Of a stretch of DNA of 64,000 nt, positions 23 to 56,798 are shown one piece after another. Source of the stretch: Candidatus Omnitrophota bacterium (GTDB lineage: Bacteria > Ratteibacteria > UBA8468 > MWAK01); assembly GCA_043797665.1 (NCBI GenBank), contig JAZDPL010000038.1:26940-90939 (forward strand), in the 5' to 3' direction. The position numbers and the translations under genes were made by a program. Under the pieces are notes generated by a model. It worked only from the letters and a program-made list of their open reading frames with translations, did no database searches and had not been told where the DNA came from. Each line of letters opens with the position of its first letter. Position 1 is the first letter of the stretch.

Positions 23-73
23 GTAGGGGTCGGATTCATCCGACCCGCGGGCGCCATGAATGGCGCCCCTACA
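23..73. repeat. Family-A palindromic repeat element (GTAGGGG-hairpin-GCGGGC-hairpin-CCCCTAC), copy 1
   Basis: Sequence gtaggggtcggattcatccgacccgcgggcgccatgaatggcgcccctac. It has two adjacent stem-loops bracketed by the inverted repeat GTAGGGG/CCCCTAC. The same architecture recurs at 5911, 20749, 39523, 46353 and 55335. Confidence 0.7.
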
Positions 74-113
74 GATGAAGATAACAAACTTACTAAACAT
101 TAGAGAAACCGGG

Positions 114-3100: not shown

Positions 3101-3188
3101 CCGGGAAGTTACCTCAGGACTCTCCCAGAAAAAAGCTTGTGCTGAGGCGGTTCGGTGTCTCCGGTGCGATGTAAAAGAAAAAGAATGA
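114..3188 (+). CDS. NAD(P)H-dependent formate dehydrogenase diaphorase/beta subunit (NuoE-like 2Fe-2S + NuoF FMN/4Fe-4S + GltD-like FAD/NAD(P) domain fusion)
   Basis: N-terminal thioredoxin-like Cys motifs (GTCGIGNGA...GCFGFC). NuoF hallmarks GRGGAGFPT and ESCGKCVPCREG. Then Cys clusters CxxxC...CENSC and CYHPCENRC, and a Rossmann motif GKKVGIVGAGPAGLTAG typical of glutamate-synthase small-subunit-like domains. The ORF track starts at 60 inside the repeat; ATG 114 (MKKLQPDKPY) is the likelier start. Confidence 0.8.
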   Translation: MKKLQPDKPYIAVGMGTCGIGNGADEVYRAFAEILAKNKPDIILKKAGCFGFCAEEPLVNLYRPGKPLLILNRVLPQDAEKIMKNITTANPAPLKPLCKIEEWDHLTGTVIHYGKGLTEVPEWNKLPFYNGQKKVVLRNCGLINPEDIEEYIAVGGYHALVKVLQGYSPEKIIAELKTAKLRGRGGAGFPTWRKWDFLRQAKTDEKYIICNADEGDPGAYMNRNEMESDPHMLLEGMLIGAYTMGANEGVIYVRAEYPLAVKRLKTAIRQAKDYGLLGDNILNSGFNFQIHIVEGAGAFVCGEETALIESIEGKAGRPRPRPPFPAEKGFRGKPTNINNVETWCNIPVIVLKGGSWFAETGTENSAGTKVFSLVGKVKNTGLVELPLGTRLETIVYQIGEGNSGDRKIKAIQIGGPSGGCIPKELFATPVDYESLTALGAIMGSGGMVVMDEDNCMVDIAKYFTEFTSAESCGKCVPCREGLYQSLKILQATTRGESDERDLAELELLGKVIKNTALCGLGQTGPNPVITTLKYFRNEYEEHILEKRCLAGICESLFLSPCENSCPLHINIPGYLQLLKENRIDDAYELLLRDNPLPATTGRICYHPCENRCRRIDIDTAVGMREVHRYIADTIYQKKNEVPILKRLREEKLPPTGKKVGIVGAGPAGLTAGFYLTRLGHEVTIYESESEAGGMLRYTIPEYRLPKSVLKKEYRLIKDLGVRFLFNTRIGEDKPLDKLVEEYDAVFLATGAHKEISLEIPGEDLKGVLSGTGFLKDIANNRMRKVGKQVLVVGGGNVAIDTARSALRSGARVSIVYRREKEDMPAYREEIKEAELEGVKFVFLAAPRAARGDTNGRVKGLEVTKMKPGGFDSSGRRRPVPTNETFIIPCDTVIVAIGERAEPGFIKDLEVNRFTLQTGNPKVYAGGDLVTGPATAVEAMAAGKRSAESIDFLLTGKHRFSKLFSEFRYQKTAPAEPEGGKRSSMKISPVKVRREDFREVTSGLSQKKACAEAVRCLRCDVKEKE

Positions 3189-5899
3189 AGAACGTAAAGG
3201 TTACGGTTGACGGAAAATGTCTGGAAGTACCGGAGGGGGTAACGATACTTTCTGCCTGCGAAAGCAATCGCATCTCCATCCCGACGCTTTGCTTTTTAGA
3301 AGGTATCAGCGAAGAAGCATCCTGTTCCCTGTGTGTGGTGGAAGTAACCGGAGCAAAAACGCTGTTACGTGCCTGCGTCACCAGAGTGACCGAAGGAATG
3401 GAAATATTTACCGGTACCCCTTCGGTGGAAGAGGCACAGAGGATAAACCTGGAACTCATCCTTGGCAAGCACCCCTTAGATTGTATGACCTGCGAAAAGG
3501 ATGGTGGATGCCAGCTCCAGGATTTAGCCTACCGGTTTGGCATCAAGACCAGCCGGTTTCTTTCTCCGGAATATCTCTTTGTAAAACAAGAGGAAAATCC
3601 CTGGAGTACCAATCCTTTCATTCAGTTTACTCCGGAAAAATGTATCCAGTGCGGCCGGTGTGTCAATGCCTGCAAGAACCAGGCGGTTATAGAGTCTATC
3701 TCTTTCGCAGGCCGGGGACAAAAAGTACGCGTTACCCCTCCATCCTCGATACCATTAGAAAAGACACCCTGTCAGTTTTGCGGAGAATGTCTCCAGGCGT
3801 GCCCTACCGGCGCCTTAATTGAAAAGACGCGGCTCAGGCAGGGGAAGATTAAAGATTTCCTCCCCACCAACACCATCTGCGCCTACTGTGGGGTGGGCTG
3901 TAACATCACCATTTACCGGGACAAGGCTAACCGTCTGGTGATGGCCGAAGGCGTTACCGGCGATACCGTTAATAACGGAAGGCTTTGCGTTAAAGGAAGG
4001 TACGGACATGAGTATAGCCAGAGTTCTGACCGGCTTACTACCCCGCTCATTAAAGAAAACGGAAAGTTCCGGACCGCAGGATGGGAAGAAGCAATTCGTC
4101 TTACCGCCGCAAAGTTGAAAGAAATAAAGGAAAAATACGGACCGGAAGCAATAGGTGTCCTGGGTTCTTCCCGGTGTACCAATGAGGATAATTACCTTTT
4201 ACAGAAATTTGCCCGCGCCGTACTGGGTACCAACAACATAGATAATTGCGCCAGGCTGTGCCACGCCTCAACCGTGGTGGGATTAGGTATGGCTTTCGGC
4301 GCCGGTGCGGCGACCAGCTCCTGTGAGGAAATAAAAGACTCTGACGTAATCTTCCTTATCGGGTCTAATATGACTGAAGCCCATCCGGTCATCGCCCAGA
4401 TGGTTAAAGAACAACAGAGAAAAAAACAGGCAAAATTAGTGGTATGTGACCCCAGATACATTGATATCGCCAAGGAGGCAGACCTCTACCTCCAGCAATA
4501 TCCTGGAACTGACGTGGCGCTGATAAACGGCATAATGAAAGTAATCCTGGAGCAAGGCCTGGAAAACAAAGGGTTTATTCAACAGCACACCGAAGGATAC
4601 GAAGAATTTAAAAAAGAGTCTGCCGGATATGACCTGGAGATGGTGAGTAAAATTACCGGCGTTAAACCGGAATTGATAAAGCAGGCAGCGGAAATCTACG
4701 GAAGGGCAAAAAGGGCGATGCTTTTCTACACCATGGGCATAACCCAGCATACCACCGGAGTGGATAACGTCTTAAGTACTGCTAATTTAGTATTAATAAC
4801 CGGCAACGTGGGGAAAAGGGGTGCGGGACTGATGCCTCTGCGGGGACAGGGAAACGTTCAGGGCGCCTGCGATATGGGTGTACTCCCGGACGTATTTACC
4901 GGTTACCAGAAGGTTACTGACCCTGATGCCCGCCATAAGTTTGAAACGGAATGGGGTGTCCCACTCCCGGATAAGCCCGGCATTCCGGTCACCCTCTTTT
5001 CGGAGAAGGCTCTTCAGGGGACATTAAAAGCGGTTTACATAATGGGAGAAAATCCGCTGATGACCGAACCGGATGTCCGCCACGTAAAAAAAGGTTTTGA
5101 AAAACTGGAGTTCCTGGCAGTCCAGGATATCTTCCTTTCGGAAACCGCACAGATGGCAGACGTGGTCTTCCCGGCTGCCTCCACCTACGAAAAAGATGGT
5201 ACCTTTACCAATACGGAAAGAAGGGTCCAGTTCCTCCGGTCCGCTAAAGAAAAACCCGGACACACAAAATTTGACTGGGAAATCGTGCGTGAAGTTGCCT
5301 CGGCAATGGGATACAGGATGGAATATACCGGTAGTGCGGAAATTATGGAAGAGATCGCCAGGATGACCCCTTCCTACGCCGGTATCTCCCACGAACGATT
5401 GAAAAAAGGCAGTCTCCAGTGGCCCTGTCCGGATAAAGACCACCCCGGAACACTCTTTCTTCATAAGGACGGCTATTTCAAAAGACCAGGTGGAAAAGGT
5501 CTGCTATCACCGGTAGCCTATAAACCAGCACAGGAACTGCCGGATGAGGAGTATCCTTTCATCCTGACCACCGGAAGGATTCTTTACCATTACCACTCCG
5601 GACAGGAGACCCGAAGGGTAAAGGTACTGGATGATTTCGTTCCAAAAAACTACGTGGAGGTTAACCCTGAGGATGCGGCAAAAACCGGGATAAAAGACGG
5701 GGATATGGTCAGAGTTTCCACCCGAAGAGGTAGTATTTCGTTAACCGCAAGGATATCGGACCGGCCCAAACCCTGCGTAATTTTTATCTCCTTCCTCTTC
5801 CGGGAAACCAACGTGAACCTTCTGACCAACCCGGCCCTGGACCCTTTAGCCAAGATTCCGGAATATAAAGTCTGTGCGGCAAGAATAGAAGTGTGTTAA
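3185..5899 (+). CDS. fdhA: Formate dehydrogenase catalytic (alpha) subunit, molybdo/tungstopterin bis-PGD enzyme with N-terminal 2Fe-2S and 4Fe-4S domains, Cys-type (no selenocysteine)
   Basis: N-terminal NuoG-like ferredoxin domains (CIQCGRCVNAC, CQFCGECLQACP) and Mo-bisPGD 4Fe-4S motif CAYCGVGC. The active-site region ARLCHASTV carries Cys where FDH-H has Sec, and there is no in-frame TGA. ATG 3185 overlaps the upstream stop (ATGA). Confidence 0.8.
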   Translation: MKNVKVTVDGKCLEVPEGVTILSACESNRISIPTLCFLEGISEEASCSLCVVEVTGAKTLLRACVTRVTEGMEIFTGTPSVEEAQRINLELILGKHPLDCMTCEKDGGCQLQDLAYRFGIKTSRFLSPEYLFVKQEENPWSTNPFIQFTPEKCIQCGRCVNACKNQAVIESISFAGRGQKVRVTPPSSIPLEKTPCQFCGECLQACPTGALIEKTRLRQGKIKDFLPTNTICAYCGVGCNITIYRDKANRLVMAEGVTGDTVNNGRLCVKGRYGHEYSQSSDRLTTPLIKENGKFRTAGWEEAIRLTAAKLKEIKEKYGPEAIGVLGSSRCTNEDNYLLQKFARAVLGTNNIDNCARLCHASTVVGLGMAFGAGAATSSCEEIKDSDVIFLIGSNMTEAHPVIAQMVKEQQRKKQAKLVVCDPRYIDIAKEADLYLQQYPGTDVALINGIMKVILEQGLENKGFIQQHTEGYEEFKKESAGYDLEMVSKITGVKPELIKQAAEIYGRAKRAMLFYTMGITQHTTGVDNVLSTANLVLITGNVGKRGAGLMPLRGQGNVQGACDMGVLPDVFTGYQKVTDPDARHKFETEWGVPLPDKPGIPVTLFSEKALQGTLKAVYIMGENPLMTEPDVRHVKKGFEKLEFLAVQDIFLSETAQMADVVFPAASTYEKDGTFTNTERRVQFLRSAKEKPGHTKFDWEIVREVASAMGYRMEYTGSAEIMEEIARMTPSYAGISHERLKKGSLQWPCPDKDHPGTLFLHKDGYFKRPGGKGLLSPVAYKPAQELPDEEYPFILTTGRILYHYHSGQETRRVKVLDDFVPKNYVEVNPEDAAKTGIKDGDMVRVSTRRGSISLTARISDRPKPCVIFISFLFRETNVNLLTNPALDPLAKIPEYKVCAARIEVC

Positions 5900-5910: not shown

Positions 5911-5960
5911 GTAGGGGTTTGATTTATCAAACCCGCGGGTCGGATAAATCCGACCCCTAC
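5911..5960. repeat. Family-A palindromic repeat element, copy 2 (inverted orientation)
   Basis: Sequence gtaggggtttgatttatcaaacccgcgggtcggataaatccgacccctac. It is the reverse-complement arrangement of the two hairpins seen at 20749. Confidence 0.7.
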
Positions 5961-5969
5961 AACCTCCTG

Positions 5970-6734
5970 ATGGAAAGGGTAAATATCGTTGTTATTTCTG
6001 AAGGAATACGCCGAACCCAGACCGATTTTGTAACCGCAGAAGTTCCTCTTACCCTTGAGGTCAATCAGAAAGAGATGGTAACCCTGTTATGCAGTCCCAT
6101 AAACTTAAAAGAGCTGGCACTGGGGTTCCTTTACACCTCAGGATTTATCCGGAAGACCGCAGACCTCAAAAAGATAATTATTGACCAACAACGATGGAAA
6201 GCAGACGTAGAAATAGACCCTTCACTTTTCCCGGAAAAATTGCTCTTCAAGCGACTCTACACTTCAGGATGCGGCAAGGGAATCATCTTTTATAATCCGC
6301 TTACTTCCATTCACCGCCGGCTCTCTTCAAAATCCACCTTTCCCGGTAAGAATATCATAGAACTAATGAAAAAATTTCAGAAAAGTTCTCCGGAATTCAA
6401 ACAAACCGGAGGCGTCCACAGTGCCGCATTGTGTGACCGGGAGAAAATACTGGTTCTGGCAGACGATATTGGCCGACATAATGCTCTGGATAAAGTTATC
6501 GGCAAAGCGCTCTTAAGTACCATCCATTTTGAAGACAAAATGACTCTTATCACCGGCCGGATTTCTTCGGAAATCTTATTCAAAATTCAGCACTGCGGAA
6601 TTCCGGCCATAGCGTCAAGCAGCGCCCCTACCGACCAGGCGGTTAAATTAGCAAAAAAAGCCGATATCACTCTGGTTGGATTCGTAAGAGGCAACCGCCT
6701 GAACGTTTACAGCGGCGAAAAACGGATAACGTAA
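5970..6734 (+). CDS. fdhD: Formate dehydrogenase accessory sulfurtransferase FdhD
   Basis: FdhD/NarQ-family sequence (GGVHSAAL..., conserved Cys in SGCGKG) directly downstream of fdhA. The track start 5919 lies inside the repeat element, and the same peptide 'IYQxRGSDKSDPY' is generated by the repeat copy at 39520 on the other strand. ATG 5970 (MERVNIV) is therefore preferred. Confidence 0.7.
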   Translation: MERVNIVVISEGIRRTQTDFVTAEVPLTLEVNQKEMVTLLCSPINLKELALGFLYTSGFIRKTADLKKIIIDQQRWKADVEIDPSLFPEKLLFKRLYTSGCGKGIIFYNPLTSIHRRLSSKSTFPGKNIIELMKKFQKSSPEFKQTGGVHSAALCDREKILVLADDIGRHNALDKVIGKALLSTIHFEDKMTLITGRISSEILFKIQHCGIPAIASSSAPTDQAVKLAKKADITLVGFVRGNRLNVYSGEKRIT

Positions 6735-17009: not shown

Positions 17010-17664
17010 AAACTTAGGCAAGAGTTTTTCTCAAAAAGAGGTCTTAAAGAACCTCCACCTGGAGGTTGATGAAGGAAATCTGGTCCTGATTGTGGGTAAA
17101 AATGGTACAGGCAAAACCACGCTTCTGAGAATTATAAACCGTCTGGAAAGGCCCGATACCGGAGAAATATTATATCGGTCTGAAGGAGAGGTAGGGGTCG
17201 GATTTAAAGGGAATTTCTATACAAGGGATTTACTCTTTCAAAGGAGAATGGTATTGGCACCCCAGACACCAATCGTCTTCCCCGGGTCGGTATATCAAAA
17301 TGCCATTTACGGGGTAAGAATCAGACGCCAAAAGCCTGAAATTTCTGTGGTCCAGGACCTGTTGGAAAGGTTTGACCTTATTCCAGCAAAAGATTTGCCC
17401 GCCCAGAAGGCCTCCTTGGGACAGAAACAGAAATTGTCTCTGGTTCGGGCATTACTCATCCCTTGCGAACTTTATCTTTTGGATGAACCTGACAACAACC
17501 TTGATGAACCAGGTCTGAAAACCCTTTTTGATTTGCTTTCTTATTTAAAAACCAGGAGAAAAACTATCTTAGTCACCACCTCCTGCCTACCCCGACTGGC
17601 TCAATTAAACTATGACCATATCTATTTCCTGGAAGATGGAAAACTAATGCCCACCGCCTCTTAA
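16993..17664 (+). CDS. tupC: ABC transporter ATP-binding protein (TupC-like)
   Basis: Walker A GKNGTGKTT, ABC signature-like LSLGQKQKLSL, Walker B LYLLDEPDNNLD. Confidence 0.65.
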   Translation: MELQIKNLGKSFSQKEVLKNLHLEVDEGNLVLIVGKNGTGKTTLLRIINRLERPDTGEILYRSEGEVGVGFKGNFYTRDLLFQRRMVLAPQTPIVFPGSVYQNAIYGVRIRRQKPEISVVQDLLERFDLIPAKDLPAQKASLGQKQKLSLVRALLIPCELYLLDEPDNNLDEPGLKTLFDLLSYLKTRRKTILVTTSCLPRLAQLNYDHIYFLEDGKLMPTAS

Positions 17665-20695: not shown

Positions 20696-20748
20696 CGCGT
20701 TTAATCCCCTACATTTTTAACTGATACAAACGAATTAAATAATTTGAC

Positions 20749-20798
20749 GTAGGGGTCGGATTTATCCGACCCGCGGGCTTGATAAATCAAGCCCCTAC
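20749..20798. repeat. Family-A palindromic repeat element, copy 3
   Basis: Sequence gtaggggtcggatttatccgacccgcgggcttgataaatcaagcccctac. It shares a 26-nt upstream extension (atacaaacgaattaaataatttgac) with the copy at 39497-39608. Confidence 0.7.
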
Positions 20799-28411: not shown

Positions 28412-28634
28412 AGGGGGTTGCTAAAATAAAAAATCCCGTCCTGCCGTTGGAATACACCTCTAGACCCATAAAGTAGGTGGGTGTCATCGCAGGCTACTTT
28501 TTGCCCGCAGGCAATCGTACCTGACTCCGACTCCCATTATCAGGGTGTTGGCAAAAGGTTGTATCCCTGGCGAACAGGACAGGATTAGTACCTATTTTAC
28601 TCCCCTCCCTCCCCGCTGTCAATAGGTAGGCATC

Positions 28635-37438: not shown

Positions 37439-39492
37439 CGCGGAATAGCAGTGGCTCCGGAAGGGAAATCAATGATTATCAGACCGTAAAAGGGCAGGAC
37501 CGTTTTGGGGATGACCGTAAGCCCGGCTTTACTCTTCTCTATCCCGAAACTTACCCGGCGCGGTCTACTCAACGGGTCAAGCACCGTACACACGGAAACC
37601 CGGTTTACTCCGGGAAGATGTACCTGGACCCGTCCGGAATCTGTACTTAAGTTGAAAACTACTATCTTACGCCTGGTTTTGAATTGCAGGTCTATGGGAA
37701 ACAGATGCGGCGTGCCGGATACCATTACCGGAGGATTCTTTTCTGCCAAAATATTTATCAGGTTCTGAACTATCCTCTGGCGCTGGAAATTAGGATTCCA
37801 GAATGACCCCTCTTCATTAAGCGGAAAAGCGCTCACCGCAACCGTACCGCCTAATTCGTTTTTAAATATGGAGAGCCCTGTTCCCACCGGTTTATTGAAA
37901 CAATCCACTACCTCGGTCCAGGGGTATGCCTTACCTCTCCGGCAGTTAAATTTCAAGATCCGGGTAAACTGGTTACAACCTGAATTAAATCCTGCCCTGA
38001 CTCCGCTCGCCCCGGAATACACAGACCGCTCCACGGAATATAAAGATTTCTCGCGGTAAAGCCACCCCCCGGATTCAATTCCCAGATATTTTCCGAATCC
38101 CCTTTTAATCAGAATATCGGCGGATTCCGCATCTAACCACAAACCCTTCGTCAGTATTTCTTTTACCTCCTTATCGGAAAAAGACCAGGCTTTCTTTCCC
38201 CAGATAAGGTTCGCCGATTCTGATTCACCCATCTGAAAAGCAACCCCGAACATTCCTAAAAGATTGGCCGGTGGAGTTGACCAGACGATAAGGTTCTGGT
38301 AATCATCACCGGAATCAGTACGGATACTTTCCGCGGCATCTTCCTTGAAAAGCACACCCACGCCCTGTGACTCCATCTTTCGGTTAAACTCCTGCCCCAG
38401 GTAAGCCAGCCCCGGAAAGGATTTATCCAGAAGTTCTCCGATACCCTCTTCCTCAAAGACACTGTTACCGGTCATGGGATGGAGGTCAAGTAAAAGTCCT
38501 TCCGAGCCCATAATCTTGGCTAAAGCCATCTGAACAAAGGTAAGGGTGTCAGACTTGTTGAAACGACCAAAAGGGAAGTTCTCCACCTCAGAATAGGATT
38601 CCACCCATTCCGGACGCAGTCTTTTCTGGATATCAAGAAGGGCAAAAGAGTTAATAAGAGAGGAACCGGTAGTCTCTCCGTAACCGGCAAAATTGGGCCG
38701 GTGAACCGCCCGGCCATTTATGGCCAATGCCTTGAAAAGGCTTTTCCACTTTCTGCCTTCTGCGCTGTGGACATCCGGGTGACTGCTCATCAACCCTAGA
38801 CGGGCTTTCGGATTTACGGACTTAACCGCATCCCTCAAGCGCCCCGCATTGGTTTCACTAATCCGGCGCCAGAGTTCTAACCAGGTCTTTCGCCAGGGAT
38901 GGGGTTTGCCAGACTGCAAAATATTCTTCACTAATTCCGGACGGCTGACCTTTTTGCCAATCTTGTGACTAAAAAGGCTCATCATCCTTTCGCTAAAATC
39001 ACCGCCCCAATCAAGGGGGCTGTGGTTATGGTAGCGGAAATCGTCTTCCAGCCAGATGGTATCAAAGCCTAACTCCGCCATTCGACGATACAAATCAGTA
39101 ATGTATTTACGCCACTCAGGGCAGGCCGGAGAGGCGACCGCCTTTGCCATTTTTCCGGTCGGGGAAACCATCAACTCAAATCCCTGACCTTTACGCAGGG
39201 TCCGACCGCGGTCACAGTGCAATACCGTAATCCACGGATTGAGATTTATTGAGAGACCGGCTCTTTTCAAGAGCGGGATTATCTTCCGGAAATTGGCGGT
39301 TATCTCCTTTATCTCCGACTCGGTTGCGTGTCCCCGGTTCCACTCTTCCGCATTGAAGAAAAGATGGACTTCAAGAATTTTGTGCTTCCGGCAAAATCGC
39401 ACTAATTCTTTAGCCCGGCTTAACGCATTCTCATCCGGCAGGATGTGAAACCGCAGACCATATCGGACATTATTGATAGACTTTTTATCCAT
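37435..39492 (-). CDS. Hypothetical TIM-barrel glycoside-hydrolase-like protein
   Basis: Long ORF with acidic motifs (TIWLEDDFRYHNH) reminiscent of GH catalytic barrels. The track start 39600 runs through the family-A repeat (39523-39608), so Met at 39492 (MDKKSINN) is preferred. Confidence 0.4.
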   Translation of the reverse strand: MDKKSINNVRYGLRFHILPDENALSRAKELVRFCRKHKILEVHLFFNAEEWNRGHATESEIKEITANFRKIIPLLKRAGLSINLNPWITVLHCDRGRTLRKGQGFELMVSPTGKMAKAVASPACPEWRKYITDLYRRMAELGFDTIWLEDDFRYHNHSPLDWGGDFSERMMSLFSHKIGKKVSRPELVKNILQSGKPHPWRKTWLELWRRISETNAGRLRDAVKSVNPKARLGLMSSHPDVHSAEGRKWKSLFKALAINGRAVHRPNFAGYGETTGSSLINSFALLDIQKRLRPEWVESYSEVENFPFGRFNKSDTLTFVQMALAKIMGSEGLLLDLHPMTGNSVFEEEGIGELLDKSFPGLAYLGQEFNRKMESQGVGVLFKEDAAESIRTDSGDDYQNLIVWSTPPANLLGMFGVAFQMGESESANLIWGKKAWSFSDKEVKEILTKGLWLDAESADILIKRGFGKYLGIESGGWLYREKSLYSVERSVYSGASGVRAGFNSGCNQFTRILKFNCRRGKAYPWTEVVDCFNKPVGTGLSIFKNELGGTVAVSAFPLNEEGSFWNPNFQRQRIVQNLINILAEKNPPVMVSGTPHLFPIDLQFKTRRKIVVFNLSTDSGRVQVHLPGVNRVSVCTVLDPLSRPRRVSFGIEKSKAGLTVIPKTVLPFYGLIIIDFPSGATAIPR

Positions 39493-39522
39493 ACCTAATA
39501 CAAACGAATTAAATATTTTGAC

Positions 39523-39608
39523 GTAGGGGTCGGATTTATCCGACCCGCGGGCCCCGTATAGGCGGCTATCGCCTTTTACGGGGCGGGCTTGATAAATCAA
39601 GCCCCTAC
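39523..39608. repeat. Family-A palindromic repeat element, copy 4 (with extra internal 34-nt hairpin)
   Basis: Sequence gtaggggtcggatttatccgacccgcgggc-[ccccgtataggcggctatcgccttttacgggg]-cgggcttgataaatcaagcccctac. It carries the same upstream extension as copy 3. Confidence 0.7.
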
Positions 39609-40929: not shown

Positions 40930-40953
40930 CGCAGTTTCACCCCCACCTCTCCT

Positions 40954-41847
40954 CTAATCCCTCTTCTTCCCCCTTTGCAAAAGGCGGGTCCCCTTCCCGT
41001 TGAATCGGGAAAGGGGGATTGAGGGGGATTTCATGGCTTCGGCTACCAGCAAGGCTTGCTTTACTTCTTTGACATCATGTACCCGAAAGATATTCGCACC
41101 GCCAAAGTAGGTCACCACTACCGCGGCAATCGTCCCGGCCATCCTTTCGGAAACCGGAGAACCGGTGATTTCACCGATAAATTTCTTCCGGGATAGACCA
41201 ACCATAACCGGACGGGAAAGGACACTGAATTCTCCAATTTTATTCAGGATGGTAAGGTTATGTCCGGTGCTCTTTCCAAAACCGATACCCGGGTCAACTA
41301 CAATCTGCTCCTCAGAAACACCGTTATCCAAAGCAATTCTTACCCTTTCTTCCAGAAACCGGGAGATTTCTTCAATTACGTCCTGATAGACCGGTCTATT
41401 TTGCATCGTGGCAGGTGTGCCCTGCATATGCATTAAAACTACTCCGCAGCCGGTTTCACCAGCCAGTTTCAAAATTCGGGTATCCTTTCCCGCGGTAATG
41501 TCGTTAATAATGTGCGCGCCTCTTTCCAGTACTGCTCTGGCTACCTCATATTTATAGGTGTCTACGGAAACAGGTATCTTTATTTTAGGAATAAGATTCT
41601 CCAGGACCGGCAGCAACCTTTTCTTCTCCTCTTCCACACTTACGGTCTGACTGCCTGGCCGGGTGGATTCTCCGCCTAAATCGATAATGTCCGCACCCTC
41701 AGCCTCCATCCGGAAAGCCCGGTCAACCGCCTTCTCTTTTTCTAAATAGGCTCCTCCTTCGGAAAAGGAGTCCGGCGTCAGGTTAAGGATACCCATAACC
41801 CTGGGCCGGGTACAGTCAATCTTCTTTCCGCGTACTAACCAGACCAT
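40954..41847 (-). CDS. folP: Dihydropteroate synthase FolP (C-terminal tail encoded by a repeat element)
   Basis: Pterin-binding TIM barrel (GILNLTPDSFSEGG, VDTYKYEVA). The last ~25 codons (SIPLSRFNGKGTRLLQRGKKRD) are encoded by the family-B element. Confidence 0.75.
   Translation of the reverse strand: MVWLVRGKKIDCTRPRVMGILNLTPDSFSEGGAYLEKEKAVDRAFRMEAEGADIIDLGGESTRPGSQTVSVEEEKKRLLPVLENLIPKIKIPVSVDTYKYEVARAVLERGAHIINDITAGKDTRILKLAGETGCGVVLMHMQGTPATMQNRPVYQDVIEEISRFLEERVRIALDNGVSEEQIVVDPGIGFGKSTGHNLTILNKIGEFSVLSRPVMVGLSRKKFIGEITGSPVSERMAGTIAAVVVTYFGGANIFRVHDVKEVKQALLVAEAMKSPSIPLSRFNGKGTRLLQRGKKRD
40966..41032. repeat. Family-B GC-rich hairpin element at the folP 3' end
   Basis: Sequence ccctttgcaaaaggcgggtccccttcccgttgaatcgggaaagggggattgagggggatttc. 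It shares the 22-mer core with the copies at 25658 and 40170 (reverse complement). Confidence 0.65.
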
Positions 41848-43685: not shown

Positions 43686-43750
43686 GATCGAAACGCAGGC
43701 TACGGGTCCCCTTACCGTTGAATCGGTAAGGGAACCTGCGACTACCTATT

Positions 43751-45432: not shown

Positions 45433-45483
45433 TCTCTTCGAATCCCCTTTAGCCATATCAAGTAGTAGCGGCGTGGGGATTCG
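45433..45483. repeat. 51-bp direct repeat duplicating the 3' end of tRNA-Met plus 33 nt of downstream sequence (second copy at 45561-45611)
   Basis: The string tctcttcgaatcccctttagccatatcaagtagtagcggcgtggggattcg is identical at both loci. The distal copy overlaps tRNA positions 45594-45611. Confidence 0.75.
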
Positions 45484-45593
45484 GCGCCCTCGGCTTTCAC
45501 TACGCCTCAGGTCGGCCATTCGCTAATAACGCTCTTATTCATCGCGTTATCTGACTTCGCTCTCTTCGAATCCCCTTTAGCCATATCAAGTAG

Positions 45594-45666
45594 TAGCGGC
45601 GTGGGGATTCGAACCCCAGACATAGCGGGTATGAGCCGCTTGCTCTACCAGCTGAGCTACACCGCC
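45594..45666 (-). tRNA. tRNA-Met (anticodon CAT)
   Basis: Reverse complement ggcggtgtagctcagctggtagagcaagcggctcataCCCGCtatgtctggggttcgaatccccacgccgcta. It folds as a cloverleaf with a D-arm, a CTCATAC anticodon loop and a TTCGAAT T-loop; G1.U72 and U6.G67 are wobble pairs. CCA is not encoded. Confidence 0.7.
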
Positions 45667-45791
45667 GTATCCAGATATTATAACCAAAAAGGAGGAAAAA
45701 CACAAACGGAATACAAATGAAGAGTAGGGGTTTGATTTGATAATTTTTTCGCTTTTAAGGTATATTAAATATCTCTTTTCTGAAAACATAT

Positions 45792-47033
45792 ATGCGCCCA
45801 AAAAGATACTGGATATATTTATTCCCCGGTTTGGTTGATTTCTCGCTGGCTTCTTTTTCCTTCTTTGTCGCGGTCAAAGCGACCCAGTTAGGCGTTTCCC
45901 CGATTACCATAGGAGGAATCGGTTCCGTCTGGGGAACAACCTACTTCGCCTCAAGTCTTATCTTGTCAAAATTGGCGAAGAAGGAGAACGTGTATCGTCT
46001 GATGATGACAGGTTGTCTCTTGTTTATATTGCTCACCATAGGTTTTGCCCTTTTCAATTCCCTACCATTCCTTTTTATTCTTACGGCCCTGACCGGAATA
46101 ACCACCGCTCTCTTCTTTATCGGTTTCCAGGTATTCATGGGCGAACAAAACAATATGCCGCTCCATAAAGGAATCGCTTTCTATACCCTTGCCTGGAGTT
46201 CCGGCATAGCTTTCGGTTCCCTGGTCCAGGGAATCCTGCTCTCCTGGGGGCCTTTTATTTCTCTCCTGCCGGTATTCCTCAGTTTTATCGCAGTTATCTT
46301 CGGTTTGAAGTTGATAAAAAGGGGGACTGACAAATCAACAGATTTCCCAAATGTAGGGGGCGGATTTATCCGACCCGCGGGCTTGATGAATCAAGCCCCT
46401 ACAGTTCGGATTAATAGGGGTATAAAAGATATAAATTCCTGCGGGTTCCAGGAAGACCCGGTAAACGACCGCATTAAAACGGCCTACGTCTATGTAGGAT
46501 GGATGAGTATCTTTACGGCTACCGCGATCAGAATGGGGATAGGTTTTCTGCTCCCCAACCTGACGATGACCCTTTTTGGATTTTCTTCGGCTCTGGCTGG
46601 CCTGGCAATATTTATCAGTCTGATGGCCCAGGCTCTGGCCGGCTTTTCAATGATGAAACTTCCCGCCTGGCGCTACCGGCTTGCACCTCTTTTCTGGACG
46701 AAATTGATTGTGGTTATCGGATGTTTCCTCGCGGCCGCCTTCCCGGCAAAAATTACCATCTTCACCCTGACTATTCTGGTGGGTATCTATTCCGGACACG
46801 CCTACTACAACGGCGTATTTTATGCCCTTAACCAGCGGGACAAAAGCGGCCGGAACGTCGGTATAAACGAAGCCCTGGTGGGTGTCGCCAGCATTGTGGG
46901 ACCGCTTACCTTTGGAATCTGTCTCCAGGCAGGGGTACCCTGGTTTATGATGGCGCCGGCGATATTTGTCCTCATCACCTTTGTGGCTCAAGCAATACTC
47001 TTGAAACTGCGGTTATCGGGCTCAATAAATTGA
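45792..47033 (+). CDS. MFS-type transporter carrying an in-frame family-A repeat insertion
   Basis: 12-TM topology over 413 aa. The segment 46331-46402 encodes ...FPNVGGGFIRPAGLMNQAPTV... from the repeat element. Confidence 0.55.
   Translation: MRPKRYWIYLFPGLVDFSLASFSFFVAVKATQLGVSPITIGGIGSVWGTTYFASSLILSKLAKKENVYRLMMTGCLLFILLTIGFALFNSLPFLFILTALTGITTALFFIGFQVFMGEQNNMPLHKGIAFYTLAWSSGIAFGSLVQGILLSWGPFISLLPVFLSFIAVIFGLKLIKRGTDKSTDFPNVGGGFIRPAGLMNQAPTVRINRGIKDINSCGFQEDPVNDRIKTAYVYVGWMSIFTATAIRMGIGFLLPNLTMTLFGFSSALAGLAIFISLMAQALAGFSMMKLPAWRYRLAPLFWTKLIVVIGCFLAAAFPAKITIFTLTILVGIYSGHAYYNGVFYALNQRDKSGRNVGINEALVGVASIVGPLTFGICLQAGVPWFMMAPAIFVLITFVAQAILLKLRLSGSIN
46331..46402. repeat. Family-A palindromic repeat element, copy 5 (inside coding sequence)
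   Basis: Sequence caaatcaacagatttcccaaatgtagggggcggatttatccgacccgcgggcttgatgaatcaagcccctac. The upstream 22 nt are shared with copy 6. Confidence 0.7.
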
Positions 47034-47051
47034 GCCCCTACATTTTCCAAA

Positions 47052-52185: not shown

Positions 52186-52365
52186 TTGACCGAAGAGATA
52201 AAAAAAAGACACAGACCCATCGATTCCTTTGAAAAAATGTTCAAGCGGTTTAAACGCGAAGTAGAAAGGGAAAAAATTTTACAGGAGATTAAAAGCCGGG
52301 AATTTTACGAAAAGCCGAGCCGCCAGCGACGTTTAAAAAAGATGCGCAAAGCGTATTCCAGGTAA
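52186..52365 (+). CDS. rpsU: 30S ribosomal protein S21
   Basis: TTG start 8 nt after the GGGGGTG RBS. The translation LTEEIKKRHRPIDSFEKMFKRFKREVEREKILQEIKSREFYEKPSRQRRLKKMRKAYSR matches the S21 family. Not in the ATG-based ORF track. Confidence 0.65.
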   Translation: MTEEIKKRHRPIDSFEKMFKRFKREVEREKILQEIKSREFYEKPSRQRRLKKMRKAYSR

Positions 52366-52376
52366 AAGGGTATTGG

Positions 52377-54115: not shown

Positions 54116-54990
54116 TGGCAGAGAATTTGAAACTGAAATTTGCGGGAATCAATTTACGGAATCCGGTGGTCCTTCTTTCCGGAACCGCAGGTTACGGAAA
54201 GGAACTGAACGACATCATCGACCTCTCTCGGATAGGTGCGCTCATATCCAAAACGATTACCGAAAAACCAAGGGTGGGAAACCCGCCGCCCCGAACCGCA
54301 GAAACTCCGGCCGGACTGCTCAACTCAATCGGACTGGAAAATCCGGGTTTGGAAGAGTTTATCAAGGAAGCGGTCCCGTTTATCAAAAGACTGCCCCTGC
54401 CGGTACTGGTCAGTATTGCGGGAAACGAAAAACAGATTACCCGAATGGGAAAAAGATTAGAAGATGCCGGAATGGCTGCCTTGGAAGTAAACCTGTCCTG
54501 TCCCAACGTTTCAGGAGAATTCAGACCTGCCTCTCCCCGGGAGATAAAAAGACTGGTAAGTCATATCAGGAAAGCGGTTAAAATCCCTTTTTTAACCAAA
54601 CTACCTCCGGACCTGTTTCGAATACAGGCTCTGGTAAAGGCGGCCGAGGAAGGTGGTACCAGCGGACTTACCATTGCCAATACTTTTCCCGCAATGACCT
54701 TTGACGTAAAGAAACGCAAACCACTACTGGGAGGGATAACCGGCGGACTATCCGGACCGGCAATTTTGCCTCTGAGCCTTTATCTGGTCTTCAAGGCGCG
54801 TGGTGTAACCAAACTTCCCATCCTGGGCTCCGGGGGGATTTACAACGGTACAGGGGCAGTATCAATGCTTCTGGCCGGTGCCGATGCGGTGGGATTGGGA
54901 ACGGTCACTTTCTACCAGCCGGACGCGTACCGGGAAATATTAAAATCCATCGCCGAATTTAGGGGCCACAGGAAAAACCAAACTAAATGA
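54115..54990 (+). CDS. pyrD: Dihydroorotate dehydrogenase catalytic subunit PyrD (class 1B)
   Basis: MAENLKLKFAGINLRNPVVLLSGTAGYG and the FMN-binding TIM barrel. The track's upstream extension from 53959 overlaps pyrK and is rejected. Confidence 0.75.
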   Translation: MAENLKLKFAGINLRNPVVLLSGTAGYGKELNDIIDLSRIGALISKTITEKPRVGNPPPRTAETPAGLLNSIGLENPGLEEFIKEAVPFIKRLPLPVLVSIAGNEKQITRMGKRLEDAGMAALEVNLSCPNVSGEFRPASPREIKRLVSHIRKAVKIPFLTKLPPDLFRIQALVKAAEEGGTSGLTIANTFPAMTFDVKKRKPLLGGITGGLSGPAILPLSLYLVFKARGVTKLPILGSGGIYNGTGAVSMLLAGADAVGLGTVTFYQPDAYREILKSIAEFRGHRKNQTK

Positions 54991-56798
54991 GACAGGGGTT
55001 CTTTCTGCTGTTTGTACTCTTTTTCGCTGTCCGACCATTCATTGACGGATTAACCTATCCCCTGACCCAGTACCTTTTTCAGTTGGTCATCATTGCCGGG
55101 GCATTAATCTATTCGACTGCCATATTATCCGGGAAAGTCCGGTATCGTCCCACCGGTCTGGAACTGCCGGGTTTTCTTTTTATTCTGGTTACCGGAATCA
55201 GCACCGTCTTTTCCTGTTCACCCTACCGGAGTTGTATTGTCTTCTTACAGTACCTATACTACTTTTCACTTTTTTTTCTCGTAAACCAGAGCCTGGCTAC
55301 CGAAATCCCGGTCAAGTCAACAAATCCCCCAAATGTAGGGGTCGGATTCATCCGCCCCGCGGGCTTGATGAATCAAACCCCTACAACGGTTCTGGTTGCG
55401 GTGCTCCTGACCACCGGTGCCCTGATAAGCCTTTATGGAATCCAGCAGTATCTCTGGGGTCTGAAAGATACCCTTAACTATCTGACAGAAAAAGGAATGG
55501 TCAACACTTTCCCTCCGGAATTTTTAGCCCGAATTTACTCCAATCGGGCATTCGCTACTTTTGTCTACCCTAATATCTTCGCGGCGTTTTTAATCGCTTT
55601 AATCCCGGTTGCTGCCTTTTCGTTGTTCCCCGGCCGATTCAAAGCGCCGGCTGATAGACTGAAGACCGTCGCGGGACTTCTTTTCCTGTGCCTTTTTGGC
55701 GTTACTCTTATGATGACGAGATCCGGCGGCGGCATTATGACCTTGATGGTGGTCTCTCTCATCTGCCTGAGCAGTCTCTGGGCATCCAAAATCGTTCCGG
55801 CAAAAAAAAAGTATCTACCGTTTCTTATTCTTATCGGGGGTTTTATTCTTATCTTCTGGGGTCTGACAACCCTGAAAATAGTACCGCACGACAAAGTCGT
55901 TTCTCTGACCGACCGGTTCTTTTACTGGCGGAGTTCTCTAAATATTACCCGCGAACGGCCTCTTCTGGGATTCGGTCCGGGAAGTTTCGGAGTTCACTAT
56001 GCCCGGTTTAAGTTACCCCGGGCAATGGAAACCCAACACAGTCACAGTACATTCTTCGAAATCCTGCCGGAAGAAGGGCTTTTGGGTGTCATTACCTTCT
56101 TCTGGTTCTGGACATTCCTTCTGATTAAAACCGGCAAGAAGAAACGAACCAACATTGAAAACGGCCTCTTCTGGGGAACGCTCGGACTATTCCTGCACAG
56201 TCAGTTCGACTTTGACCTTGCGGACCCGTCGCTGGCGACCTATCTTTTTGCTTTGCCGGCGTTGATTACTCTGACCGAGGGAAAGGAACACCCCTGGCCC
56301 CTCTCTAAGAGGGGAAGGGAACCCTCGGTAAAATTGACCCGAATCGGAACAGGAATTATAATATTAGTATTACTCTTTTCCGGAATAAGAACTATTAGAC
56401 TTTACCGTGCCGAAAAAATTTATCAACACGGATTGAACCTCTTCGCCAAGGGAGAAAACGGTTTGGAACTATTGGAACAAGCAGGATGTCTGGAACCCAA
56501 AAACCCAACGTACTGGGCTCAGTTAGGAAATATCTATTACCGGGCAGGCAAAGAATTGGGTGCCGTAAAAATTATGGAAAAAGCCGCTGATGCTTACCGT
56601 AATGCGGCGGATGCGGAACCTTACGCCGCTTCCTACCGGTTTCATTTAGGTTCGTCCGCAGAGGAGATTGCCCGAATGTCCGGTGACAAGCGGTGGGAAA
56701 GCGTAGCCAACGAGGCTTTTAAACAAGCGGTCTTACTCTATCCAACTAAAAAAGAGTATCAAAAAAAGGCGGAAAGATTGAGAGGGAACACCCCATGA
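54987..56798 (+). CDS. O-antigen ligase/polymerase-like (Wzy_C) membrane protein with C-terminal TPR repeats, carrying an in-frame family-A repeat insertion
   Basis: Multiple TM helices, a Wzy_C-like loop (LLGFGPGSFGVHY...HSHSTFFEIL), and a TPR-like C-terminus. The segment 55313-55384 encodes ...PPNVGVGFIRPAGLMNQTPTT... Confidence 0.55.
   Translation: MRQGFFLLFVLFFAVRPFIDGLTYPLTQYLFQLVIIAGALIYSTAILSGKVRYRPTGLELPGFLFILVTGISTVFSCSPYRSCIVFLQYLYYFSLFFLVNQSLATEIPVKSTNPPNVGVGFIRPAGLMNQTPTTVLVAVLLTTGALISLYGIQQYLWGLKDTLNYLTEKGMVNTFPPEFLARIYSNRAFATFVYPNIFAAFLIALIPVAAFSLFPGRFKAPADRLKTVAGLLFLCLFGVTLMMTRSGGGIMTLMVVSLICLSSLWASKIVPAKKKYLPFLILIGGFILIFWGLTTLKIVPHDKVVSLTDRFFYWRSSLNITRERPLLGFGPGSFGVHYARFKLPRAMETQHSHSTFFEILPEEGLLGVITFFWFWTFLLIKTGKKKRTNIENGLFWGTLGLFLHSQFDFDLADPSLATYLFALPALITLTEGKEHPWPLSKRGREPSVKLTRIGTGIIILVLLFSGIRTIRLYRAEKIYQHGLNLFAKGENGLELLEQAGCLEPKNPTYWAQLGNIYYRAGKELGAVKIMEKAADAYRNAADAEPYAASYRFHLGSSAEEIARMSGDKRWESVANEAFKQAVLLYPTKKEYQKKAERLRGNTP
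55313..55384. repeat. Family-A palindromic repeat element, copy 6 (inside coding sequence)
   Basis: Sequence caagtcaacaaatcccccaaatgtaggggtcggattcatccgccccgcgggcttgatgaatcaaacccctac. Confidence 0.7.

What the first reader, a model, noticed from the sequence alone, without database searches (positions are those of the whole stretch)
23..55384. Family of ~50-90-bp GTAGGGG...CCCCTAC double-hairpin repeat elements, two of them inserted in frame inside membrane-protein genes
Six clear copies sit at 23-73, 5911-5960, 20749-20798, 39523-39608, 46331-46402 and 55313-55384, with a partial seventh at 45724-45745. All share the architecture GTAGGGG-[tcggatttatccga]-CCC-GCGGGC-[ttgataaatcaa]-GCCCCTAC, in both orientations. 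One copy carries an extra nested hairpin. Four copies are intergenic, often right at gene starts, where they create spurious N-terminal ORF extensions such as the 'IYQxRGSDKSDPY' peptide at the fdhD start and at 39600. Two copies lie inside an MFS transporter and a Wzy-like ligase, where they are read in frame as ...PNVG(G/V)GFIRPAGLMNQ(A/T)PT.... This resembles the in-frame palindromic elements of Rickettsia (RPEs). Such behaviour is rarely documented outside a few lineages.
Basis: seen in the sequence. Interest (0 to 1): 0.65.

Follow-up and report, generated by a model that had tools for sequence, protein, structure and literature searches.

The report
GTAG-tagged REP dimers, two inside genes
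These repeats are an ordinary kind of bacterial "junk" hairpin DNA (GTAG-tagged REP sequences arranged as inverted pairs), here in an uncultured Omnitrophota bacterium, and two copies have landed in frame in flexible loops of membrane-protein genes, a behaviour already reported for this repeat class in 2013.

Summary
The window holds five exact 50-nt elements GTAG-GGG-N14-CCC-GC-GGG-N14-CCC-CTAC (0 expected by chance). It also holds an 86-nt copy with extra DNA in the spacer, one single unit and two truncated heads. Each element is two inverted copies of one polar 24-nt unit: GTAG followed by a 20-nt palindrome. That is the anatomy of GTAG-tagged repetitive extragenic palindromes (REPs) in "head-to-head" dimers (BIME/REPIN-like).

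The same architecture occurs in at least 96 stretches from Omnitrophota, gut Clostridia, Acidobacteriota, Proteobacteria, Chloroflexota and others. Stem covariation across them is very strong.

The two in-gene copies are real. The MFS and Wzy-like ORFs read through them, homologues lack the peptide, and both peptides fall in low-confidence inter-helix loops of AlphaFold models. In other genomes the same dimers sit in frame in UvrA, another Wzy protein, a PabB-like enzyme and an oxidoreductase.

Di Nocera et al. 2013 already described GTAG REP dimers with 1-2 bp spacers and in-frame intragenic copies, including in uvrA. They also showed that some Rickettsia RPEs are the sister CGTC-tagged REPs.

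No RAYT transposase was found in the window, so mobilisation by one is inferred, not shown.

Verdict: new member of a known kind, modest interest.

The parts
23..72 (.). REP head-to-head dimer (units GTAG-GGGTCGGATTCATCCGACCC and, on the minus strand, GTAG-GGGCGCCATTCATGGCGCCC; 2-nt GC spacer). Intergenic, upstream of the NuoF-like/formate dehydrogenase gene.
5911..5960 (.). REP dimer in the opposite orientation (TTTG unit first, TCGG unit second). It lies between the stop of ORF 3155-5899 and the likely true fdhD start at 5971, and creates a spurious N-terminal extension of ORF 5919-6734.
20718..20798 (.). REP dimer (20749-20798) plus a 31-nt 5' flank that is 95% identical to the flank of copy 39492-39608. 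It lies between hypD (stop) and moaA (start), both on the minus strand.
   Evidence: (family D7)
39492..39608 (.). REP dimer whose spacer carries an extra 32-nt hairpin (39552-39583, unique in all the data held), plus the shared 31-nt 5' flank. It lies between fpg (stop at 39617) and the start of the next minus-strand gene.
46331..46402 (+). REP dimer (46353-46402) plus a shared 5' extension of at least 22 nt, inside the MFS transporter gene 45792-47033. It is read in frame as aa 181-204, in the central loop between helices 6 and 7. One stem mismatch.
55313..55384 (+). REP dimer (55335-55384) plus the same 5' extension, inside the Wzy_C/O-antigen-ligase-like gene 54987-56798. It is read in frame as aa 110-133, in a loop between two helices. 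Both stems carry one mismatch.
47018..47041 (-). Single REP unit (GTAG-GGGCTCAATTTATTGAGCCC). Its complement encodes the last residues (SGSIN) and the TGA stop of the MFS gene.
   Evidence: (D8)
45724..45738 (+). Truncated REP head (GTAGGGGTTTGATTT), 15 nt identical to the start of copy 5911. Lies upstream of the MFS gene.
17191..17206 (+). Truncated REP head (GTAGGGGTCGGATTTA, 16 nt) inside ABC-ATPase-like ORF 16993-17664, read in the same frame (VGVGF). Possibly the remnant of an old in-gene copy.

Best explanation
The elements are GTAG-tagged repetitive extragenic palindromes (REPs). The basic unit is 24 nt: the tetranucleotide GTAG followed by a perfect 20-nt palindrome, GGG-NNNN-ATTYAT-NNNN-CCC. 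Two units in inverted orientation, with the GTAG tags on the outside and a 2-nt GC spacer, form the 50-nt 'double hairpin'. This is a head-to-head REP dimer of the BIME/REPIN type.

**Inferred mechanism.** Such units are non-autonomous. A single-copy HUH/Y1 'REP-associated tyrosine transposase' (RAYT/TnpA-REP), encoded elsewhere in the genome, copies or moves them. It recognises the folded single-stranded hairpin together with its GTAG tag, cleaves nearby and rejoins. This explains four features:
- the unit is polar;
- the stem stays Watson-Crick on both strands while its sequence drifts;
- there are no target-site duplications;
- sibling copies carry along 22-31 nt of flank on one side only.

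**Genomic position.** Most copies survive between co-directional genes, where they are harmless. As stable RNA hairpins (about -30 kcal/mol) they may also affect mRNA 3' stability there.

**In-gene copies.** Two sibling copies, a variant with a 5' extension of at least 22 nt, landed in frame in permissive inter-helix loops of an MFS transporter and a Wzy-like protein. They are tolerated as roughly 24-residue disordered inserts and have begun to lose stem perfection.

**Shown versus inferred.** Shown: the anatomy, polarity, covariation, distribution, in-frame read-through, loop location and absence from homologues. Inferred: RAYT-mediated mobilisation, any RNA-level role, and neutrality of the peptide inserts.
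For: - **Exact architecture, far above chance**.
- **Same polar unit in both halves.** Read GTAG-first, the loops are ATTYAT 73 times against ATRAAT 2, and TCACGA 58 against TCGTGA 8.
- **Stem covariation.** In 88 distinct units, 97% of cells are paired and all 6 variable pairs show compensatory changes. The score is 0.764 against at most 0.16 for slid controls, with almost no G-U. This points to a hairpin constraint that holds on both DNA strands.
- **Stable two-hairpin folds**, z from -3.5 to -7.4.
- **Wide distribution.** The same GTAG-GGG-N14-CCC-GC-GGG-N14-CCC-CTAC design occurs in at least 96 stretches from many phyla, and N14 is always palindromic although the pattern did not require it. 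The hits include clustered BIME-like arrays (L054) and dimers with 26-62-nt spacers.
- **No target-site duplications**; CTACA is conserved at the right end.
- **Sibling pairs share one-sided flanks** (families D4 and D7; L043).
- **Typical REP position.** All four intergenic copies lie between co-directional genes.
- **In-gene copies.** Both ORFs are intact with full-length homology. Homologues lack the peptide. The inserts coincide with pLDDT<50 coil between helices. Stems are perfect in 9 of 9 intergenic units against 1 of 4 in-gene units (Fisher p=0.014).
- **Independent in-frame cases elsewhere**, verified with Pfam: UvrA, Wzy_C, Chorismate_bind, GFO_IDH_MocA.
- **True RAYT genes exist in related uncultured lineages.** One scores NF047646 at 104 bits (cut-off 80) and lies 1 kb from an Omnitrophota-type dimer. 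Clostridial RAYT-like ORFs contain GTAGGGG-class units.
- **Literature.** REPs are defined as 20-50-nt palindromes preceded by GTAG. TnpA-REP needs the GTAG and the folded ssDNA, and group-3 REPs are short perfect palindromes (PMC8266576). GTAG REP dimers with 1-2 bp spacers and in-frame intragenic dimers are described in PMC3733652.
Against: - **No RAYT in the window.** No RAYT gene is present in the 64-kb window, and the rest of the contig could not be fetched.
- **The RAYTs found belong to another class.** Those I could examine are flanked by, and contain, a different GTAG/GTAC REP class (TCGGGSTC stems), not the GGG-N14-CCC class. The cognate enzyme for this class is therefore unidentified.
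- **Copy number is extrapolated.** The count in this genome rests on 64 kb plus related MAGs.
- **Fold differs from classical REPINs.** Heterodimers fold as two separate hairpins rather than one long REPIN hairpin in most copies.
- **Convergence not excluded.** Cross-phylum similarity of a short GC-clamped palindrome could be partly convergent.
- **The MFS gene may be under relaxed constraint.** Its closest relative is split by a 2-nt indel. 'Tolerated in a functional protein' is therefore less secure for that gene.
Confidence: 0.8

Rival explanations
1. A Rickettsia-RPE-like selfish element. This would be a distinct family of palindromic elements that specifically targets coding sequence and persists because it is read in frame.
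For: The behaviour is the same as RPEs. There are in-frame inserts of about 24 aa in loops of otherwise conserved proteins, and this recurs in other genomes.
Against: - Only 2 of 6 dimers in the window are in genes, although about 90% of the window is ORF. Of about 100 dimers elsewhere, only a handful are clearly intragenic. The family is therefore depleted in coding sequence, not targeted to it.
- The tag is GTAG. Rickettsia RPE-4/6 belong to the CGTC-tagged REP super-family, and RPE-1 is a longer palindromic insertion (PMC3733652).
- The architecture matches GTAG REP dimers exactly.
Confidence: 0.05
2. [quoted passage not shown] Its terminal inverted repeats would be GTAGGGG/CCCCTAC.
For: It is short, palindromic and dispersed, occurs in both orientations, and its ends are inverted repeats.
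Against: - None of the six copies has a target-site duplication.
- Each half is independently a perfect palindrome with its own GTAG. Single units also occur alone (47018-47041), which a MITE would not do.
- Spacers between halves vary from 2 to 62 nt.
- No IS-like parent was seen.
Confidence: 0.05
3. Host-encoded regulatory hairpins (terminators, attenuators or mRNA stabilisers) that evolved in place and look alike through convergent selection for a GC-clamped stem, rather than mobile DNA.
For: The intergenic copies sit between co-directional genes inside apparent operons (fdhA-fdhD, hypD-moaA, fpg-next gene). They fold very stably as RNA. E. coli REPs are known to affect mRNA stability and gene expression (PMC8266576 introduction).
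Against: - There is no T-run, and the elements are not called by the terminator scan.
- Near-identical copies share extra flanking sequence at unrelated loci.
- Copies occur inside ORFs and as truncated fragments.
- Identical design with a conserved unpaired GTAG tag and a polar loop appears in many phyla.
- G-U pairs are avoided, as expected for a DNA-level rather than RNA-only constraint.
- A regulatory side-effect of mobile REPs is not excluded.
Confidence: 0.07
4. The PNVGxGFIRPAGLMNQxPT peptide is a native protein motif, and the DNA similarity is secondary.
For: Two membrane proteins carry it in the same frame.
Against: - Homologues of both proteins lack it. This covers 7 MFS homologues, including one about 80% identical, and 11 Wzy homologues down to 25% identity.
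- The same DNA occurs in intergenic space and in other frames and orientations.
- The peptides are modelled as disordered.
Confidence: 0.01

Closest known systems
GTAG-tagged REPs in head-to-head dimers (Di Nocera et al. 2013, BMC Genomics 14:522); closest described example: Opitutus terrae GTAG-17 HH dimers
   Same: - Unpaired GTAG tag followed by a 6-9 bp GC-rich stem.
- Sub-families with alternative complementary stems.
- Dimers with GTAG on the outside and only 1-2 bp between partners.
- Location mostly between co-directional or convergent genes.
- The GTAG end sometimes supplies the end of an ORF.
- In-frame intragenic dimers encoding about 16-30 aa, including in uvrA and transporters.
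- O. terrae belongs to the PVC superphylum. Omnitrophota being PVC-affiliated is my own knowledge and was not checked here.
   Different: - The stem and loop sequence differs: GGG-NNNN-ATTYAT-NNNN-CCC here, whereas the O. terrae peptides imply CCGGG-type stems.
- 'GTAGGGG' does not occur in the paper's text or its held supplements, so this sequence family and the host phylum were not covered.
- The paper surveyed complete genomes of cultured organisms only.
REPIN-RAYT systems / REPtrons (Nunvar 2010; Bertels & Rainey 2011; Ton-Hoang 2012; Corneloup 2021)
   Same: - Two inverted REPs behave as one replicating unit, since sibling dimers share flanks.
- Short, perfectly palindromic REPs with GTAG resemble 'group 3' REPs.
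- Polarity of the unit and a DNA-level hairpin constraint fit recognition of folded ssDNA by a Y1 HUH enzyme.
   Different: - No RAYT flanked by these units was found.
- The spacer is only 2 nt.
- The two halves usually have different stems, so most copies fold as two hairpins on a 4-bp GTAG/CTAC stem rather than one long hairpin.
Rickettsia palindromic elements (RPE)
   Same: Palindromic repeats inserted in frame in conserved genes, adding a short peptide in a permissive region.
   Different: RPE-4/6 carry the CGTC tag, not GTAG, and RPE-1 is a longer palindromic insertion. The host lineage is different. Here most copies are intergenic.
E. coli BIMEs (REP y/z pairs)
   Same: GTAG-headed REPs in alternating orientation, sometimes in arrays. 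Arrays are seen here in Clostridial locus L054.
   Different: E. coli REPs are longer imperfect palindromes with a conserved bulge and defined linker motifs. The units here are perfect 20-nt palindromes with a 2-nt spacer.

Membership tests
GTAG-tagged REP | Small palindrome (20-50 nt) immediately preceded by a conserved, unpaired GTAG | tested here: met
   13 units in the window read GTAG + GGG-N14-CCC. Ten have 8/8 stem pairs, against 0 in 50 shuffles. The definition is taken from PMC8266576.
GTAG-tagged REP | Many dispersed copies per genome, predominantly extragenic | tested here: inconclusive
   The window has 6 dimers, 1 single unit and 2 fragments in 64 kb. Four of the six dimers lie in the roughly 6-10% of sequence not covered by long ORFs. 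A related Omnitrophota MAG has 38 units in 86 kb of fetched loci. The whole genome of this MAG could not be scanned.
GTAG-tagged REP | Sub-families with different but complementary stem sequences (structure conserved, sequence free) | tested here: met
   The stem cores TCGG, CTTG, TTTG, CGCC and CTCA occur in the window. Across 88 distinct units, 97% of cells are paired and 6 of 6 variable pairs are compensatory.
GTAG-tagged REP | Organisation in inverted dimers/clusters (BIME; HH or TT dimers) | tested here: met
   All six window elements are HH dimers, five with a 2-nt spacer and one with 38 nt. Related genomes show 26-62-nt spacers and arrays.
REPIN-RAYT system (REPtron) | A single-copy RAYT/TnpA-REP gene in the same genome, flanked by cognate REPs | tested here: inconclusive
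   There is none in the window (tblastn and a small HMM). RAYTs found in related metagenomic lineages score NF047646 at 104 bits, but they are flanked by a different REP class. Clostridial RAYT-like ORFs contain GTAGGGG-class units internally.
REPIN-RAYT system (REPtron) | The enzyme cleaves and rejoins the folded single-stranded REP in a GTAG-dependent manner | not testable with these tools
   This needs a biochemical assay (CST assay of Corneloup et al. 2021).
REPIN | The doublet, not the single REP, is the replicating unit and can fold as one long hairpin | tested here: inconclusive
   Sibling dimers share flanks, and dimers greatly outnumber single units. However, 6 of 8 folds give two separate hairpins, and only copies 5911 and 55335 fold as one long hairpin.
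Rickettsia palindromic elements (RPE) | RPE consensus (CGTC-tagged for RPE-4/6; a longer palindromic insertion for RPE-1) | tested here: not met
   The tag is GTAG, the unit is 24 nt and the dimer 50 nt. The RPE classification is taken from PMC3733652.
MITE | Terminal inverted repeats with target-site duplications; no autonomous half-elements | tested here: not met
   None of the six copies has a duplication. Single units occur on their own.
Intrinsic terminator | GC-rich hairpin followed by a run of T/U | tested here: not met
   The elements at 20749 and 39523 are not among the 32 terminator-like sites, and no T-run follows any copy.

The most novel reading that the evidence does not exclude
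The exact geometry GTAG-GGG-N14-CCC-GC-GGG-N14-CCC-CTAC (7-bp clamp, 6-nt polar centre, 2-nt GC spacer) is one homologous, anciently or horizontally shared REP-dimer super-family. It would span Omnitrophota and other candidate phyla, gut Clostridia, Acidobacteriota, Proteobacteria and Chloroflexota, and would be served by one conserved, still unidentified RAYT clade. It would also act as a recurrent, cross-phylum source of 17-24-residue loop insertions in real proteins (UvrA, Wzy, MFS, PabB), and in some lineages inside the RAYT gene itself. In this genome it would operate alongside a second, unrelated palindromic repeat family that likewise inserts in frame (fpg).
Probability: 0.35. Interest if true: 0.55.

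Novelty: new member of a known kind. Interest (0 to 1): 0.3.

Why it matters
This is mainly a clean annotation result. It explains spurious N-terminal ORF extensions, odd low-complexity peptides such as VGVGFIRPAGLMNQAPT and CRGRIYPTRGLDKSSPY in predicted proteins from metagenome-assembled genomes, and extra loops in otherwise conserved proteins.

It also extends GTAG-REP dimers to Omnitrophota and to many uncultured lineages and gut Clostridia that the 2013 survey of cultured genomes did not cover. No paper in the searched library links Omnitrophota with REP, REPIN or RAYT.

If the cross-phylum family is truly homologous, it offers a large natural data set for two questions: how RAYT specificity co-evolves with hairpin sequence, and how mobile hairpins seed new protein loops. 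None of this overturns current understanding.

Tried and rejected
1. **Peptide search in the 5.8-billion protein set.** A 61-aa concatenate of the three open frames produced only 2 candidates and missed even the window's own MFS protein. It says nothing about distribution, and one search was wasted.
2. **Metagenome scan for the 5'-extension sub-family** (ATYYCCCAAATGTAGGGGNNNNATTYAT). It re-found only the L043 locus, as L101 and L102. The sub-family is rare, and no bias towards coding sequence could be tested.
3. **Extending the window's contig.** Two window proteins were not on record.
4. **RAYT hunt.**
   - tblastn with E. coli YafM, recalled from memory and used only as a lead, plus a 4-sequence HMM, found nothing in the window.
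   - Homologues of the L078 RAYT were followed into 11 contigs. All carry another REP class.
5. **Nested hairpin of copy 39523.** No other copy exists in the window or in 110 loci.
6. **Rfam at gathering thresholds.** Only tRNA-Met and 6S RNA were found; nothing matches the repeats.
7. **'72 nt = 24 codons' as the reason only the extended variant is in genes.** Not pursued as a claim, because the true insertion boundaries are uncertain. The shared similarity could be 72-75 nt. What is firm is that the bare 50-nt dimer cannot insert without a frameshift.
8. **Close, empty-site orthologue of the Wzy gene.** None was obtained. The best representatives are at most 53% identical and have unrelated loops of similar length at that site.


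Full report
**Observation.** The pattern GTAGGGG-N(20-50)-CCCCTAC occurs five times in the window, at 23-72, 5911-5960, 20749-20798, 46353-46402 and 55335-55384. It occurs in none of 100 shuffles.
- The sixth copy, 39523-39608, has the same two arms with an extra 32-nt hairpin in between.
- GTAG followed by a perfect 8-bp stem occurs ten times in the window and never in 50 shuffles.
- I add a single unit at 47018-47041, whose complement encodes the last five residues and the stop codon of the MFS gene. I also add a 16-nt head at 17191 inside an ABC-ATPase ORF.

**Anatomy.** Each 50-nt element is GTAG + a 20-nt palindrome + GC + a 20-nt palindrome + CTAC. That is two copies of one 24-nt unit in inverted orientation with the GTAG tags outside.
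- Read GTAG-first, every window unit is GTAG-GGG-NNNN-ATTYAT-NNNN-CCC, with stem cores TCGG, CTTG, TTTG, CGCC or CTCA.
- The unit is polar. Over 210 units from the window and 96 other loci, the centre reads ATTYAT 73 times against ATRAAT 2, and TCACGA 58 times against TCGTGA 8.
- On 88 distinct units, 97% of stem cells are Watson-Crick pairs and all six variable pairs show compensatory changes. The covariation score is 0.764, against at most 0.16 when partners are slid. G-U pairs are almost absent. This is what a hairpin that must form on either DNA strand predicts.
- As RNA or single-stranded DNA, the dimers fold into two hairpins on a short GTAG/CTAC stem (about -26 to -34 kcal/mol, z from -3.5 to -7.4). 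Two copies prefer one long hairpin.
- There are no target-site duplications, and CTACA is constant at the right end.
- Copies come in sibling pairs that share flank on one side only. Copies 20718-20798 and 39492-39608 share 31 nt at 95% identity. The two in-gene copies share at least 22 nt. The same extension precedes an intergenic dimer in a related MAG (L043, also L101/L102).

**Context.** The window is from a Candidatus Omnitrophota MAG. Its MFS protein is 100% identical to an NCBI record of that name.
- The four intergenic dimers all lie between co-directional genes: upstream of a NuoF-like formate-dehydrogenase subunit, fdhA|fdhD, hypD|moaA and fpg|next gene.
The Pfam FdhD domain starts at residue 40 of ORF 5919-6734.
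- They have no T-run and are not called as intrinsic terminators. Rfam has nothing for them.

**The in-gene copies.** ORF 45792-47033 (Pfam MFS_1) and ORF 54987-56798 (Pfam Wzy_C) run through the elements without a stop or frameshift.

For the MFS gene:
- The insert is residues 181-204.
- Seven homologues lack it, and it falls in the central loop.
- An AlphaFold model (pTM 0.81) gives 12 helices, with pLDDT<50 only for residues 181-223, between helices ending at 184 and starting at 223.
- At the DNA level the closest relative is about 90% identical in the flanks. At this very site it carries a different palindromic repeat, and its gene is split by a 2-nt indel in four independent contigs. The loop is therefore a hot spot, and the gene may be under relaxed constraint in this lineage.

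For the Wzy-like gene:
- The insert is residues 110-133.
- Eleven homologues (25-52% identity in the alignment) lack the peptide. Distant ones have a short loop there, and the closest have unrelated loops of similar length.
- The model (pTM 0.85) has pLDDT<50 at 107-129, between helices 79-104 and 132-168.

Three of the four in-gene units carry a stem mismatch, whereas 9 of 9 intergenic units are perfect (Fisher p=0.014). This suggests decay of, or selection against, strong hairpins in coding sequence. The bare 50-nt dimer is not a multiple of three. Both in-gene copies are the variant with extra 5' sequence, but the exact boundaries are unknown.

- Twenty-two bases of the pattern are specified, so by my own arithmetic about 0.07 matches are expected by chance in 596 Gb.
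- In every hit both N14 segments are palindromic, although the pattern did not require it.
- Hosts include three Omnitrophota MAGs (13 contigs of one), several unclassified MAGs with the same ATTYAT type, Ratteibacteria, Ignavibacteria and Bipolaricaulota. They also include about 45 loci from gut Clostridia (TCRYGA centres), Acidobacteriota/Bryobacterales, Alpha-, Gamma- and Delta-proteobacteria, Chloroflexota and Actinomycetes.
- Hits on megabase contigs and a closed chromosome show the spread is not a binning artefact.
- Arrays (L054) and dimers with 26-62-nt spacers also occur.

Screening all dimers for long ORFs open on both sides and checking with Pfam gave independent in-frame cases:
- UvrA, inside the DNA-binding domain (L032);
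- another Wzy_C protein (L073);
- a chorismate-binding PabB-like enzyme (L001);
- a GFO/IDH/MocA oxidoreductase (L081);
- a PfkB kinase with a repeat-encoded C-terminal tail (L006).

**Transposase.** No RAYT-like ORF is in the window.
- L078 carries a true REP-associated tyrosine transposase (NF047646, 104 bits against a cut-off of 80) 1 kb from an Omnitrophota-type dimer. It is flanked by dimers of another GTAG/GTAC class.
- Its homologues in 11 contigs are likewise flanked by, and contain in frame, that other class. They sit in conserved synteny between an epimerase and a DegT aminotransferase.
- Clostridial RAYT-like ORFs (L084, L016) contain GTAGGGG-class units inside their coding sequence.
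- So RAYT-REP systems are present in these lineages, but the cognate enzyme of this class was not identified.

**Comparison with the literature.**
- REPs are defined as 20-50-nt palindromes preceded by a conserved tetranucleotide, mostly GTAG, often paired as REP/iREP in BIMEs. TnpA-REP is a single-copy HUH/Y1 enzyme related to IS200/IS605 transposases. It processes folded single-stranded REPs and needs the GTAG. [quoted passage not shown]
- Di Nocera et al. 2013 (PMC3733652) sorted REPs into GTAG and CGTC super-families and described HH/TT dimers, homo- and heterodimers, and 1-2 bp spacers in Opitutus terrae GTAG-17 HH dimers. They also described location between co-directional and convergent genes, and intragenic units and dimers encoding 20-30 aa, many in DNA repair genes such as uvrA. 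They assigned Rickettsia RPE-4/6 to the CGTC super-family. Their supplementary table lists in-frame O. terrae dimers such as VAGLGEPGAGVRDPGY in a transporter.
- The present elements share all these properties but have a different stem and loop sequence. 'GTAGGGG' does not occur in that paper or its held supplements. No paper in the library links Omnitrophota with REP, REPIN or RAYT.

**Mechanism and rivals.**
- Best explanation (0.8 for identity as GTAG REP dimers; about 0.55 for RAYT mobilisation specifically): these are non-autonomous hairpin elements spread through single-stranded DNA intermediates by a RAYT. They are mostly retained in harmless intergenic sites. Two sibling copies are tolerated as disordered loop inserts.
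- An RPE-type coding-targeted element is not supported. Copies are depleted in coding sequence, and the tag is GTAG.
- A MITE is not supported. There are no duplications, and half-elements occur alone.
- In-place regulatory hairpins are not supported. Copies share flanks, occur in genes and as fragments, have no T-run and avoid G-U.
- A native peptide motif is refuted by the homologue alignments.

**Verdict.** The sequence observation is sound, and the in-frame insertions are real and lie in loops. The phenomenon is a new member (new sequence family, new host phylum) of a kind described in detail in 2013. Interest is modest (0.3). The most novel reading not excluded is a single cross-phylum REP-dimer super-family with one conserved RAYT partner, acting as a recurrent source of protein loops.

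Noticed in passing
window 25599-25680, 40163-40228, 40953-41030; partial 18651-18690, 43703-43732: A second, unrelated family of nested palindromic repeats (AAATCCCCC..TCCCCCTTT..inner hairpins..AAAGGGGGA..GGGGGATTT). Copy 40163-40228 lies inside fpg (39617-40486, minus strand) and is read in frame as about 20 extra residues (SPFKKGGSPCPRMGKGGLRG). These residues are absent from E. coli Fpg (1K82), while the rest of the protein aligns end to end. Copy 40953-41030 encodes the C-terminal tail of the folP-like ORF 40954-41847.
   Followed up: partly
L097:780-1200 and L098:496-916 versus window 46200-46560: In the closest relative (MAG CAZVUE01 and three metagenome contigs), the orthologous MFS gene carries a family-2 repeat (peptide LLNPPQSPFVKEGLQGDL) at the same central-loop site where the window has the GTAG dimer. 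A 2-nt indel splits that gene into ORFs of 230 and 162 aa. The loop is a repeat-insertion hot spot, and the gene may be decaying or working as two halves.
   Followed up: partly
L084:22-558, L016:2-259, L106:3001-3564, L109:3001-3657, L112:2011-2574, L113:233-952: RAYT (REP-associated tyrosine transposase) genes in Clostridia and in uncultured lineages contain REP units of their own genome's class inside their coding sequence, in frame. Examples are VGANCVRPQ and GRPQVAPT in L084, and a GTAG-TCGGGCTC unit in the L078 clade. One clade sits in conserved synteny between an epimerase and a DegT aminotransferase gene.
   Followed up: partly
window 45433-45483 and 45561-45611: A 51-nt exact direct repeat, 128 nt apart. 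The second copy overlaps the 3' end of tRNA-Met (45593-45666, minus strand). It looks like an att-type duplication left by an integrative element, or a local tandem duplication.
   Followed up: no
window 28429-28588 (minus strand): 6S (SsrS) RNA gene, Rfam RF00013, 64.8 bits.
   Followed up: no
window 23333-24492, inside ORF 21843-24644 (minus strand): Six to seven tandem copies of a coding repeat of about 170 nt (60-97% identical) in a 933-aa ORF.
   Followed up: no
window 58875-58981 and 60428-60534: A 107-nt direct repeat, 95% identical and 1553 nt apart, at or after the 3' ends of two adjacent ORFs (57406-58983 and 58980-60410).
   Followed up: no
L054:4300-5760: BIME-like array in a gut Eubacteriales MAG. 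Four GTAGGGG dimers alternate with other GTAG-headed hairpins and conserved linkers within 1.4 kb.
   Followed up: no
L008 (Candidatus Altiarchaeota MAG, 2.2-kb contig): An Omnitrophota-type dimer (TCGG/TTTG units, ATTYAT centres) sits on a short contig binned as archaeal. This is more likely a mis-binned bacterial contig than a true archaeal occurrence.
   Followed up: no
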